Positions 457 to 654 of a stretch of 1,950 nt of DNA are shown here, in pieces. Both the position numbers and the translations under genes were made by a program. The number at the start of each line of letters is the position of its first letter. Positions within the stretch are counted from its first letter, which is position 1. This DNA comes from Escherichia coli (lineage in GTDB: Bacteria > Pseudomonadota > Gammaproteobacteria > Enterobacterales > Enterobacteriaceae): the NCBI RefSeq assembly GCF_003334385.1, contig NZ_QOWN01000106.1. One strand, 5' to 3'. The notes beneath the pieces are model-generated. The model made no database searches. It saw only the letters and a program-made list of their open reading frames with translations, and was not told the origin of the DNA.

Positions 457-483
457 ATGCAATACAGAATTTTCGTATTGCAT
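457..483. promoter_or_regulatory. 9-bp perfect inverted repeat ATGCAATAC-N9-GTATTGCAT enclosing most of 16-mer copy 1 (operator-like site or RNA hairpin)
   Basis: Bases 457-465 are the exact reverse complement of 475-483, and the spacer is agaattttc. Copy 2 of the 16-mer lacks equivalent arms. Confidence 0.45.
462..477. repeat. Copy 1 of an exact 16-nt direct repeat, ATACAGAATTTTCGTA
   Basis: It is identical to 639-654, 177 bp away. The flanking bases differ on both sides (a461 vs g638, t478 vs g655). Confidence 0.9.
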
Positions 484-530
484 GGTAACTGCTGATTCCT
501 GAAACTGAAAGTCGTCATGAAACTGTAAGC

Positions 531-558
531 GAAAAAACGGGGAGACGGCACGCTCCCC
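531..558 (-). terminator. Rho-independent terminator oriented for minus-strand transcription (T2)
   Basis: The minus strand reads GGGGAGCG-TGC-CG(T)CTCCCC-G-TTTTTT-C. The outer stem is 539-544 with 553-558, the inner pairs are C546-G552 and G547-C551, and A545 is bulged. The 6-T run is the complement of A532-A537. Confidence 0.6.
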
Positions 559-638
559 AAGGTCATACATGAGATAGTGGTGTTTTTATAGTCGAAAGAA
601 TAATTGCATAAAAAGAGTGTAAATTAAACATTCAGGGG

Positions 639-654
639 ATACAGAATTTTCGTA
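639..654. repeat. Copy 2 of the exact 16-nt direct repeat, ATACAGAATTTTCGTA
   Basis: It is identical to 462-477. Confidence 0.9.

What the first reader, a model, noticed from the sequence alone, without database searches (positions are those of the whole stretch)
457..654. Exact 16-mer (ATACAGAATTTTCGTA) preserved in two otherwise diverged modules; in one copy it sits inside a 9-bp perfect inverted repeat
Modules A and B have drifted substantially, yet 16 consecutive bases are identical (462-477 and 639-654). This is the longest exact repeat I found in the window. Mini-ORFs that overlap the two copies on the minus strand read the 16-mer in different frames, so the conservation is at the nucleic-acid level. 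Copy 1 lies within ATGCAATAC-N9-GTATTGCAT (457-483), a dimeric-operator-like site or a 9-bp RNA stem. Copy 2 has no such arms. The 16-mer could be a protein-binding site, an sRNA seed, or a recombination/gene-conversion tract.
Basis: seen in the sequence. Interest (0 to 1): 0.55.

Follow-up and report, generated by a model that had tools for sequence, protein, structure and literature searches.

The report
Repeated 16-mer beside prophage eib gene
The exact 16-base repeat is real and is the shared core of two tandem, unannotated, terminator-ended units on the opposite strand, in the conserved non-coding stretch that travels with the prophage adhesin gene eib; they look like small-RNA genes or their remnants, but nothing here shows they are expressed or what they do.

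Summary
ATACAGAATTTTCGTA occurs exactly at 462-477 and 639-654, and copy 1 lies in a perfect 9-bp palindrome (457-483).

Context: the window is the tail-fibre-assembly (tfa) to eib intergenic region of Eib-type lambdoid prophages (27 of 5,426 complete E. coli genomes). On the minus strand there are three tandem units, each ending in an intrinsic terminator. The 16-mer (TACGAAAATTCTGTAT) lies 73-80 nt upstream of the terminators of units A and B.

A and B are alike only in the 16-mer and the pre-terminator/terminator part. The 45 nt after the 16-mer are unrelated, so the 16-mer is an island (P about 0.005).

Across 37 alleles the eib-proximal copy B is always present. It ends a near-invariant block of about 400 bp upstream of eib. 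Copy A and its palindrome are deleted in several alleles, altered without compensation in one lineage, and fused with B in one contig (an exact 177-bp deletion at the repeat).

Found nothing: Rfam, protein families, extra copies in a 61.5-kb phage, pairing to the eib leader, a seed-like accessibility signal.

Best reading (about 0.4): a new prophage sRNA-like unit, with the 16-mer as its conserved 5' core. Close rival: a neutral relic in a duplicated terminator array. The operator reading is not supported. Interest is modest.

The parts
639..654 (-). 16-mer copy B (minus strand TACGAAAATTCTGTAT). It is the eib-proximal copy and the last 16 bases of the near-invariant block upstream of eib.
   Evidence: Exact match. 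Present in all 15 loci found by BLAST (14 exact) and exact in 49 of 51 scored loci overall. pi = 0.003. Alleles T1 and T2 diverge at the very next base.
462..477 (-). 16-mer copy A, which forms the loop and inner stem of a 9-10 bp hairpin.
   Evidence: Exact match. Present in 10 of 15 loci found by BLAST (8 exact, 2 with U-to-C). Deleted in the 114-bp deletion alleles and merged with copy B in L173.
457..483 (.). Perfect 9-bp palindrome ATGCAATAC-N9-GTATTGCAT around copy A.
   Evidence: shuffle P about 0.10. As minus-strand RNA: -10.2 kcal/mol, z -5.9. The arm change G-to-T in L139, L166 and L167 is not compensated.
363..536 (-). Unit A: weak or absent promoter, 16-mer hairpin, second hairpin (423-458), a C/A-rich single-stranded stretch, and a terminator.
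   Evidence: Alignment with unit B. RNA fold z -3.3. No promoter-like site found upstream.
537..720 (-). Unit B: conserved 5' block (655-720), 16-mer, variable body (560-638), terminator.
   Evidence: RNA fold z -0.27, terminator hairpin only.
235..362 (-). Unit 0: a third, degenerate unit with a hairpin (323-348) and terminator but no 16-mer. Only a TTGCATC remnant is left.
   Evidence: Two alleles keep the terminator stem with different loops.
531..559 (-). Intrinsic terminator of unit B (GGGGAGCGTGCCGTCTCCCC followed by T6). It is degenerate in allele T2.
   Evidence: Not detected in L005 (T2) or L006 (single-module).
363..388 (-). Intrinsic terminator of unit A (GGGGAGCACGCACTCCCC followed by A and T6).
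   Evidence: Present in all alleles, with a GGTGAG stem mismatch in some.
235..259 (-). Intrinsic terminator of unit 0, directly after the tfa stop codon. It works on the minus strand only, since there is no T-run on the + strand.
   Evidence: sequence.
749..777 (-). Best sigma-70-like promoter match facing the units (TAGTCA-17-AATAAT), divergent from the eib promoter-like site at 996-1024.
   Evidence: kept in T1, T2 and single-module alleles. A consensus match only; the number of such sites is not above shuffle expectation.
676..705 (-). Alternative weaker promoter-like site TTGAAT-18-TAAATT (8 of 12). It would put the 16-mer at about +15 to +30. Its -35 hexamer exists only in alleles with the 11-nt duplication.
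   Evidence: Read from the sequence. Below the scan tool's threshold.
500..638 (.). Hypervariable segment between the two conserved blocks (alleles T1 and T2, about 70-75% identical, with mosaic recombinants).
   Evidence: pi = 0.108 against 0.003-0.018 in the flanks. Alignments.
459..572 (.). Segment missing in the single-module alleles (114 bp: terminator B, the region upstream of A, copy A and the left arm). The junction has ATC microhomology at the foot of the palindrome.
   Evidence: L001, L006, L007, L152, L171, L172, and also L129 and L155.
478..654 (.). The 177 bp missing in contig L173: one repeat copy plus the sequence between the copies. This is the product expected from recombination or slippage between the two 16-mers.
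   Evidence: Not found as a single piece in any of the 27 finished genomes.

Best explanation
The 16-mer is the conserved core of a small, unannotated transcription unit on the minus strand. The unit is divergent from eib and has been tandemly duplicated: units B, A, and a degenerate third unit 0.

Proposed working (inferred, not shown): transcription starts in the conserved eib-upstream block, at the promoter-like site 777->749 or the weaker one at 705->676. It runs towards tfa and stops at the first competent intrinsic terminator. That is B's terminator in allele T1, and A's terminator in allele T2, the 114-bp-deletion alleles and the fused allele. Every allele would therefore make an RNA with an invariant 5' domain that ends in the 16-mer (copy B), a variable middle, and a conserved C/A-rich stretch plus a terminator with a U6 tail.

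This is the build of an Hfq-type base-pairing sRNA, and the 16-mer would be its conserved functional element: a pairing or protein-contact site. In copy A the same sequence is locked in a 9-10 bp hairpin and can be lost.

Shown: the repeat, the three minus-strand terminators, the patchy homology, the allele architectures, and the restriction to eib cassettes. Inferred: transcription, the start site, and any regulatory role.
For: - Three intrinsic-terminator-like sites at 242-259, 371-388 and 538-559, all on the minus strand (5 sites found against 1.4 +/- 1.3 in shuffles). None has a T-run on the + strand.
- The 16-mer sits 73 nt (A) and 80 nt (B) upstream of its unit's terminator.
- A and B share only the 16-mer and the pre-terminator/terminator part (P<0.0005). 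The 45 nt after the 16-mer are unrelated (P=0.76), and the run of 16 has P=0.005. Conserved ends with a variable middle is typical of paralogous sRNAs.
- No ORF over either copy survives across alleles, and no protein family was found.
- Copy B plus its 5' block, and the A body plus terminator, are present in every allele. The middle varies by 0, 63 or 177 nt.
- A promoter-like site facing the units and divergent from the eib promoter-like site is kept in all three architectures tested.
- The units occur only inside eib cassettes: 27 genomes with 71 places, 8 phages and 29 metagenome contigs, all with the same layout.
- Precedent: prophage moron sites carry short sRNAs with a conserved terminator domain (PMC4104026), and prophage Pas sRNAs occur as multiple variants (bioRxiv 10.64898/2026.05.13.724894).
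Against: - There is no expression evidence of any kind.
- The promoter matches are weak (9/12 and 8/12), and their number is not above shuffle expectation.
- Predicted accessibility of the 16-mer in copy B (0.30-0.68) equals the transcript average.
- No target stands out in a complete Eib phage, and pairing to the eib leader is at background (-7.4 against -5.6 +/- 1.9 kcal/mol).
- There is no Rfam match at E<=1.
- No compensatory changes support any stem. The observed changes in the A hairpin, hairpin 2 and the A terminator are uncompensated.
- Unit integrity decays: the B terminator is lost in T2, and copy A is deleted in several alleles.
- Among alleles the 16-mers are not significantly less polymorphic than their already near-identical flanks (1 of 16 sites each against about 1 in 10).
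- A more distant eib-like cassette (L161) lacks the units entirely.
Confidence: 0.4

Rival explanations
1. Neutral relic. The units are a tandemly duplicated array of minus-strand terminators. They insulate the tail genes from leftward or antisense transcription that arises in or beyond the eib cassette. The sequence upstream of each hairpin has no function. The 16-mer is a leftover identity island, or a short conversion patch, whose only consequence is to act as a substrate for deletion.
For: - Three terminators in a row on one strand, at the boundary with a convergent gene.
- Clear decay and turnover: the T2 terminator is degenerate, there are 114-bp deletion alleles, and the A terminator has stem mismatches.
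- L173 shows the repeat does mediate an exact 177-bp deletion.
- There is no seed-like accessibility, no target, and no covariation.
- The 16-mers are not measurably more conserved among alleles than their flanks.
- The units are absent from the diverged cassette L161, which has a single terminator instead.
Against: - A 16-base identity run next to 45 nt of unrelated sequence is improbable under neutral drift (P about 0.005).
- A 16-nt conversion tract between sequences with no flanking homology is mechanistically unlikely (established knowledge of RecA-dependent recombination; not tested here).
- The whole non-coding cassette is far more conserved than the eib coding start next to it (pi 0.012 against 0.39).
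Confidence: 0.3
2. DNA-level protein-binding site. The 16-mer, or the 27-bp palindrome in copy A, is bound by a regulator. Candidates are the IbrA/IbrB co-activators of eib or a phage repressor. The two copies are 177 bp apart, which is about 17 helical turns and so puts them on the same face of the helix, allowing a loop.
For: - Copy A is a perfect 9-bp palindrome.
- The intergenic region is rich in inverted repeats: 901-938, 1006-1023, and 711-750.
- Eib phages such as PhiR5_2 carry ibrA/ibrB.
- The spacing of 176-177 bp is kept in 41 of 42 two-copy loci.
Against: - Copy B has no dyad arms.
- The arm mutation in one lineage is not compensated, and the palindrome is deleted in several alleles that keep an intact eib.
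- There are no further copies at up to 3 mismatches in a 61.5-kb Eib phage, and hits at 4 mismatches are at chance level (7 against 4.4).
- The sites lie 390-580 bp upstream of the eib start codon, outside the 168 bp that suffice for eibG complementation from a plasmid (PMC13534694).
- The palindrome alone has P about 0.10.
Confidence: 0.12
3. Small-protein gene or type I toxin-antitoxin-like repeat. The 16-mer encodes T-K-I-L-Y within a short ORF. In allele T2 this ORF extends into a hydrophobic 46-aa product, MTIEGRTKLFSAIPQPTKILYLMIVLFALFLCSHSVAYKKAPLSHV.
For: - Both copies can be read in the same frame (T-K-I-L-Y) by ORFs 624-701 and 291-566.
- The T2 product has a membrane-like hydrophobic stretch followed by basic residues.
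- The units are tandem repeats, as in the Sib/Ibs and Ldr loci (the comparison is from established knowledge).
Against: - ATG is changed to ATA in several alleles.
- The ORF is cut to 25 aa by a stop plus a frameshift in T1, which is the allele in this window.
- There are premature stops in L139 and L148.
- No Shine-Dalgarno sequence precedes any candidate start.
- There are no homologues beyond fragments of this same locus in 5.8 billion proteins.
- There is no Pfam or PHROG match.
- No antisense partner or + strand terminator was found.
Confidence: 0.04

Closest known systems
Prophage moron-associated sRNAs of pathogenic E. coli: EcOnc01-03, i.e. AgvB and AsxR (Tree et al. 2014, PMC4104026)
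   Same: They are carried by lambdoid prophages next to an accessory ('moron') gene. They are short units that end in Rho-independent terminators. Paralogues share one domain and differ in another, and several copies occur per genome.
   Different: Those genes lie downstream of PR' near stx-type morons, convergent with the moron gene. The units here lie after tfa and are divergent from eib. There is no match to the Rfam models AgvB RF02702 or AsxR RF02703 at E<=1. Expression and Hfq binding are shown for those RNAs and are unknown here.
Pas sRNAs (PasA-D) of EPEC/EHEC prophages (Zhu, Shabalina and Storz 2026, bioRxiv 10.64898/2026.05.13.724894)
   Same: They are prophage-borne and have a 3' stem-loop plus a poly-U tail. 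They occur as many sequence variants and copy numbers shaped by recombination. Some variants lack a terminator and may be pseudogenes.
   Different: Pas genes occur in 1,362 genomes, including E2348/69, near Q/holin/RusA or capsid/tail genes. The units here occur in 27 of 5,426 E. coli genomes and only next to eib.
OmrA/OmrB-type tandem paralogous sRNA genes (from established knowledge, not tested here)
   Same: Two adjacent same-strand genes share a conserved short pairing element and a conserved terminator end, with a divergent middle.
   Different: OmrA and OmrB are core-genome genes with validated expression, and their seed lies at the extreme 5' end. There is no sequence similarity. Here one copy is buried in a hairpin and can be lost.
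Short conserved boundary ('linker') sequences at module junctions in mosaic lambdoid phages (from established knowledge)
   Same: The end of copy B coincides exactly with the switch from a near-invariant block to a variable segment. Alleles are mosaic, and one contig has a deletion joined at the repeat.
   Different: Only one of the two boundaries of the variable segment coincides with a 16-mer. The other boundary lies 20-35 nt away and differs between alleles. No recombinase is adjacent.
Lambda-type nut boxB hairpins (from established knowledge)
   Same: Hairpin A has a loop that begins GAAAA and lies in a lambdoid phage.
   Different: The loop is 7-9 nt, not a GNRA-like pentaloop. The stem is 9-10 bp rather than 5. 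No boxA is present. The site is far from pL and pR, in the tail/accessory region. I do not regard it as a nut site.

Membership tests
Hfq-type trans-acting sRNA gene | Rho-independent terminator with a U-tail of 6 or more at the 3' end | tested here: met
   Units A, B and 0 have GC-rich 6-7 bp stems followed by 6-7 T on the minus strand. B's terminator is lost in allele T2.
Hfq-type trans-acting sRNA gene | Own promoter and a discrete transcript | tested here: inconclusive
   There are only consensus matches: 9/12 at 777->749, conserved across alleles, and 8/12 at 705->676. The number of matches is not above shuffle expectation. Unit A has none. Expression cannot be tested with these tools.
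Hfq-type trans-acting sRNA gene | Conserved, accessible seed | tested here: inconclusive
   The 16-mer is conserved between paralogues (P 0.005). Its predicted unpaired probability is average in B, and it is sequestered in A.
Hfq-type trans-acting sRNA gene | Complementary target sites above background | tested here: not met
   Within the 61.5-kb phage and the eib leader there is no site above background apart from the trivial cis-antisense sites. The host genome could not be scanned with these tools.
Known Rfam RNA families (AgvB, AsxR, Esr41, STnc100, IsrG, Sok and others) | Covariance-model match | tested here: not met
   cmscan of the whole window, both strands, against 4,227 families gave no match at E<=1.
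Dimeric operator (palindromic repressor or activator site) | Dyad symmetry at each functional copy | tested here: not met
   Copy A has 9-bp arms. Copy B has none beyond TAC/GTA.
Dimeric operator (palindromic repressor or activator site) | Site retained wherever the regulated gene is retained | tested here: not met
   The palindrome is deleted in 5 of 15 loci found by BLAST while eib stays intact. It is altered without compensation in L139, L166 and L167, and absent from L161.
Dimeric operator (palindromic repressor or activator site) | Binding by a cognate protein | not testable with these tools
   This needs EMSA or footprinting with IbrB, IbrA or lysogen extracts.
Type I toxin-antitoxin repeat (Ibs/Sib, Ldr/Rdl, Zor/Orz type) | Conserved small hydrophobic ORF with translation signals | tested here: not met
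   The ORF is intact only in some T2 alleles, there is no Shine-Dalgarno sequence, and no family was found.
Type I toxin-antitoxin repeat (Ibs/Sib, Ldr/Rdl, Zor/Orz type) | Antisense or partly complementary sRNA partner | tested here: not met
   There is no + strand terminator or promoter-like site within the units. The two copies are direct repeats, not complementary.
Tandem duplication of a DNA unit | Same-strand copies at a constant period with homology beyond the repeat itself | tested here: met
   The period is 177 bp (176 in T2) in 41 of 42 loci. The terminator-proximal parts are homologous (P<0.0005), and the 5' parts marginally so (P 0.055). A third, degenerate unit follows.
Site-specific recombination core (att-like) flanking an inserted segment | Exact direct repeats flanking the segment, plus an 'empty site' allele | tested here: inconclusive
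   L173 is exactly the one-repeat form. However, it is a single metagenome contig, absent from 27 finished genomes. It is explained equally well by homologous recombination or slippage.
Site-specific recombination core (att-like) flanking an inserted segment | Associated recombinase | tested here: not met
   No recombinase gene is adjacent. In PhiR5_2 the integrase lies about 37 kb away.

The most novel reading that the evidence does not exclude
The conserved non-coding block of about 400 bp that travels with otherwise highly diverse eib adhesin genes encodes a previously undescribed prophage regulatory RNA. It would be transcribed divergently from eib, and perhaps under the same IbrAB control. 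Its invariant 16-nt core would pair with, or sponge, a host mRNA or sRNA. Surface-adhesin expression would then be coupled to a change in host gene expression. The tandem second copy, hidden in a hairpin, would be a masked or decaying paralogue.
Probability: 0.15. Interest if true: 0.55.

Novelty: new member of a known kind. Interest (0 to 1): 0.3.

Why it matters
Eib proteins are immunoglobulin-binding trimeric autotransporter adhesins that drive serum resistance and chain-like adhesion in LEE-negative STEC and other E. coli. How they are regulated, apart from activation by IbrAB, is poorly understood.

This work shows that diverse eib alleles share a near-identical leader of about 800 bp with no annotation. 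The leader contains divergent promoter-like sites, several strong inverted repeats, and a tandem array of terminator-ended units whose only strictly shared internal element is this 16-mer. If the units are expressed, they would add a member to the growing set of prophage-borne sRNAs that link accessory virulence genes to host regulation. If they are not, the locus is still a clear small example of how short exact repeats shape mosaic prophage regions: two kinds of deletion allele and freely recombining alleles.

In either case, current annotation pipelines either leave the region blank (PGAP) or fill it with spurious 49-aa ORFs (PV340546).

Tried and rejected
- **Genome-wide scan for the 16-mer in 596 Gb of GTDB genomes.** It returned only chance hits in unrelated phyla. 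About 280 are expected for a 16-mer, and none was homologous by BLAST.
- **Pairing of the 16-mer to the eib leader.** I had noticed ATACAGAtAATTTT at 1014-1028. The duplex energy of -7.4 kcal/mol is at background, and that site is better explained as half of a DNA palindrome that is perfect in other alleles.
- **AgvB-like anti-GcvB mimicry, suggested by the C/A-rich stretches.** There is no Rfam hit, and by eye the match to the GcvB R1 seed has a mismatch. I did not pursue it.
- **LexA, ArgR, NagC, CRP, IHF and Cra consensus comparisons by eye.** None fits. These comparisons are from memory and are not formal tests.
- **Coding explanations.** I checked ORF integrity across alleles and searched the 5.8-billion-protein database, Pfam and PHROGs. 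All were negative.
- **Literature.** No held paper contains the sequence or analyses this intergenic region. The Sandt and Hill papers that annotated P-EibA and IbrAB are not held.
- **Plasmids.** No match.
- **Structural covariation.** Allele diversity is too low, and every change seen in a predicted stem is uncompensated. I therefore built no covariance model.
- **My first diversity profile** used too strict a filter and kept only 5 alleles. It was replaced (37 alleles).
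Full report

Yes. ATACAGAATTTTCGTA occurs exactly at 462-477 and 639-654. There is no further match at up to 3 mismatches, and no dinucleotide shuffle gave two copies. It is the longest exact direct repeat the repeat finder lists. Copy 1 sits in the perfect palindrome ATGCAATAC-N9-GTATTGCAT (457-483). Copy 2 has no arms.

The palindrome alone is only mildly unusual: P is about 0.10 for at least one perfect inverted repeat of 9 bp or more in a shuffled window.

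**2. Where is this?**

The window is the junction between a tail fibre assembly gene (DUF4376, stop at 232-234) and an eib gene (YadA-like immunoglobulin-binding adhesin, start at 1042) of Eib-type lambdoid prophages. The closest annotated relatives are P-EibA of ECOR-9 (AF151091) and phages PhiR5 and PhiR12.

The intergenic DNA is found in 27 of 5,426 complete E. coli genomes (71 places, up to five per genome) and in 8 phage records. It is not found on plasmids. PGAP annotates nothing there. One phage record calls two 49-aa minus-strand ORFs.

**3. Anatomy**

The informative strand is the minus strand. Three intrinsic-terminator-like sites lie there, at 259-242, 388-371 and 559-538, with T-runs of 6-7 (5 sites found against 1.4 +/- 1.3 expected). 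None has a T-run on the + strand.

A third, degenerate unit (235-362) follows. Read on this strand the 16-mer is TACGAAAATTCTGTAT. It lies 73 nt (A) and 80 nt (B) upstream of the terminator hairpin.

Similarity between A and B is patchy:

| Segment (minus strand) | Similarity |
|---|---|
| 60 nt 5' of the 16-mer | marginal (P 0.055) |
| The 16-mer | exact |
| Next 45 nt | unrelated (P 0.76) |
| Pre-terminator plus terminator | clearly homologous (P<0.0005) |

Against 56% overall identity, a run of 16 has P about 0.005. The 16-mer is thus a true island, not just the best-preserved stretch of a uniformly drifting duplicate.

**4. Comparative picture**

I assembled related loci from finished genomes, phages, IMG/VR and metagenomes, giving 22 and later 37 distinct alleles.

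- **The leader is conserved while eib is not.** The start of the eib coding sequence is extremely diverse (pi 0.39). The 400 bp upstream of it (639-1041) are almost invariant (pi 0.012-0.014), and this block ends exactly with copy B (pi 0.003).
- **A variable segment follows.** Directly after copy B, two alleles (T1, as in this window, and T2) differ by about 25-30% until about 500 (pi 0.108). Mosaic recombinants exist (L169, L004, L168). Conservation then resumes about 20 nt before copy A and continues through unit A.
- **T2 lacks a recognisable B terminator**.
- **Some alleles lack 114 bp (459-572).** The missing part is terminator B, copy A and the left arm of the palindrome. The junction has ATC microhomology at the foot of the palindrome. 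P-EibA is one of these alleles.
- **One lineage has an altered copy A.** L139, L166 and L167 have TACGAAAATCCTGTAT together with an uncompensated arm change.
- **Single-base variants of copy B exist** (L002, L175).
- **One gut-metagenome contig (L173) has an exact 177-bp deletion** whose junction is the 16-mer: B-type 5' flank, one 16-mer, A-type 3' flank. No finished genome has this form.

Among the 15 loci found by BLAST rather than by the 16-mer itself, copy B is present in 15 (14 exact). Copy A is present in 10 (8 exact).

All 29 metagenome contigs that contain a 16-mer followed by a terminator have the same tfa-units-eib layout.

A more distant eib-like cassette (L161, 57% protein identity) keeps only about 165 bp of promoter-proximal homology and one terminator. 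It has no units and no 16-mer.

**5. What it is not**

- **Not coding.** Every ORF over either copy loses its start, gains a stop or is deleted in some allele. The hydrophobic 46-aa ORF of T2 has no relatives beyond this locus, and there is no Pfam or PHROG match.
- **Not a known RNA family.** There is no Rfam match at E<=1. That library includes AgvB, AsxR, Esr41, STnc100, IsrG and Sok, as listed in bioRxiv 10.64898/2026.05.13.724894.
- **Not a dispersed operator.** A complete 61.5-kb Eib phage, which also carries ibrA/ibrB, has no other copy at up to 3 mismatches. Hits at 4 mismatches are at chance level.
- **Not needed for plasmid-borne eibG expression.** That works with 168 bp of upstream DNA (PMC13534694).
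- **Not detectably an eib-targeting seed.** The duplex with the eib leader is -7.4 kcal/mol against a background of -5.6 +/- 1.9, and no phage site stands out.

**6. RNA-level properties**

As minus-strand RNA, unit A is significantly structured (z -3.3). The 16-mer forms the loop and inner stem of a 9-10 bp hairpin (-10.2 kcal/mol, z -5.9). A second hairpin, a C/A-rich single-stranded stretch and the terminator follow.

Unit B has no significant structure apart from its terminator (z -0.27). The accessibility of its 16-mer is about the transcript average under either candidate start site, in all alleles.

No stem is supported by compensatory change. The few changes seen are uncompensated.

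**7. Most likely explanation**

What is common to every allele is a conserved 5' block ending in one 16-mer (copy B), then a variable middle, then the A-type C/A-rich stretch and a competent terminator with a U6 tail. A promoter-like site (TAGTCA-17-AATAAT, 777->749) faces this unit. It is divergent from the eib promoter-like site (996-1024) and is kept in all architectures tested.

This is the build of a small non-coding transcription unit of the kind repeatedly found beside accessory genes in E. coli prophages (PMC4104026; bioRxiv 10.64898/2026.05.13.724894). The conserved core, conserved 3' end and variable middle are what paralogous sRNAs look like.

I therefore favour, at about 0.4, a prophage sRNA-like unit whose conserved internal element is the 16-mer. 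Copy A would be a duplicated, hairpin-masked and dispensable paralogue. Transcription, the start site and any target are inferred, not shown.

**8. Rivals**

- **Neutral relic in a duplicated terminator array (about 0.3).** The array would insulate the tail genes from antisense transcription, and the 16-mer would matter only as a deletion substrate. The visible decay, the L173 deletion and the lack of any seed signature favour this. The improbability of the identity island argues against it.
- **DNA operator (about 0.12).** This is disfavoured by the missing dyad in copy B, the frequent loss of copy A, the absence of other copies, and the distance from the sufficient eib promoter fragment.
- **Small protein or type I toxin (about 0.04).** This is largely refuted by the allele comparison.

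**9. Novelty and interest**

The element is unannotated and matches no curated family. However, it belongs to a known kind (prophage accessory-gene-associated sRNA-like units, or repeats in mosaic junctions), and there is no evidence of function. A specialist would find it a reasonable candidate for a Northern blot rather than a surprise. Interest is about 0.3.

The most novel reading not excluded is an IbrAB-co-regulated RNA, divergent from eib, that uses the 16-mer to act on host RNAs. I give it a probability of about 0.15.

Noticed in passing
window 901-938: A perfect 11-bp inverted repeat, GAAATTCCGAA-N16-TTCGGAATTTC (P about 0.006 in shuffles). It is annotated only as 'stem_loop' in AF151091. 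It lies inside the 168-bp fragment that suffices for eibG complementation, so it is a better operator candidate for eib control than the 16-mer.
   Followed up: partly
window 1006-1023: The near-palindrome TTATTTGTATACAGATAA overlaps the spacer and -10 of the predicted eib promoter (TTGAAC-17-GATAAT, 996-1024). It is a perfect 18-bp palindrome in alleles L152 and L007. Its TGTATACA core is kept in the diverged eib-like locus L161 (TTTGTATACAAA).
   Followed up: partly
window 711-723 / 738-750: A 13-bp inverted repeat (12 of 13 complementary) overlaps the -10 and start region of the minus-strand promoter-like site at 777->749. It is either a possible operator for the unit-facing promoter or a 5' hairpin of its RNA.
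   Followed up: no
window 691-712: A tandem 11-nt duplication (TCAATGGTCAT twice) that is present in some alleles and single in most. On the minus strand it creates a TTGAAT -35-like hexamer 18 nt upstream of TAAATT.
   Followed up: partly
window 639-1041 compared with 1042-1200: The 400 bp upstream of eib are about 99% identical across 37 alleles (pi about 0.012). The first 160 nt of the eib coding sequence differ at most sites (pi 0.39). A conserved leader cassette is shared by very different eib types.
   Followed up: partly
L159/L160 (PV340546, phage PhiR5_2): This is a 933W-like phage. It carries the eib cassette inside its tail-gene region and also encodes IbrA/IbrB (57.9-59.7 kb), the reported co-activators of eib. 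Activator and target thus travel on one phage.
   Followed up: no
L005, L004, L006 (allele T2), equivalent to window about 563-701 minus strand: In allele T2 the ORF over copy B extends to a 46-aa hydrophobic product (MTIEGRTKLFSAIPQPTKILYLMIVLFALFLCSHSVAYKKAPLSHV). It resembles a type I toxin but has no Shine-Dalgarno sequence, loses its start codon in several alleles, and has no family.
   Followed up: yes
window 323-348 and 242-259 (unit 0): There are two alleles of the unit-0 hairpin (GGAGGCCGTTGCATCTCC and GGAGGCTATTGTGCCTCC). There are also two of its terminator, which keep the GGGGC/GCCCC stem with different loops. The stems appear to be maintained while the loops change.
   Followed up: no
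window 497-529: The direct repeat TCCTGAAACTGAAAG / TCATGAAACTGTAAG (13 of 15 identical, 18-nt spacing) lies between terminator B and copy A, within the variable segment.
   Followed up: no
L171 (NZ_CP145707.1, 2116535-2117824): An IS21-family element (istB) truncates the tfa gene right next to a single-module cassette. This eib locus sits in a decaying prophage.
   Followed up: no
L002 / PV340546 37697-37846 and 37900-38049: Two 49-aa 'hypothetical proteins' are annotated on the minus strand across the units. One of them runs through an intrinsic terminator. The allele comparison indicates they are spurious gene calls.
   Followed up: yes
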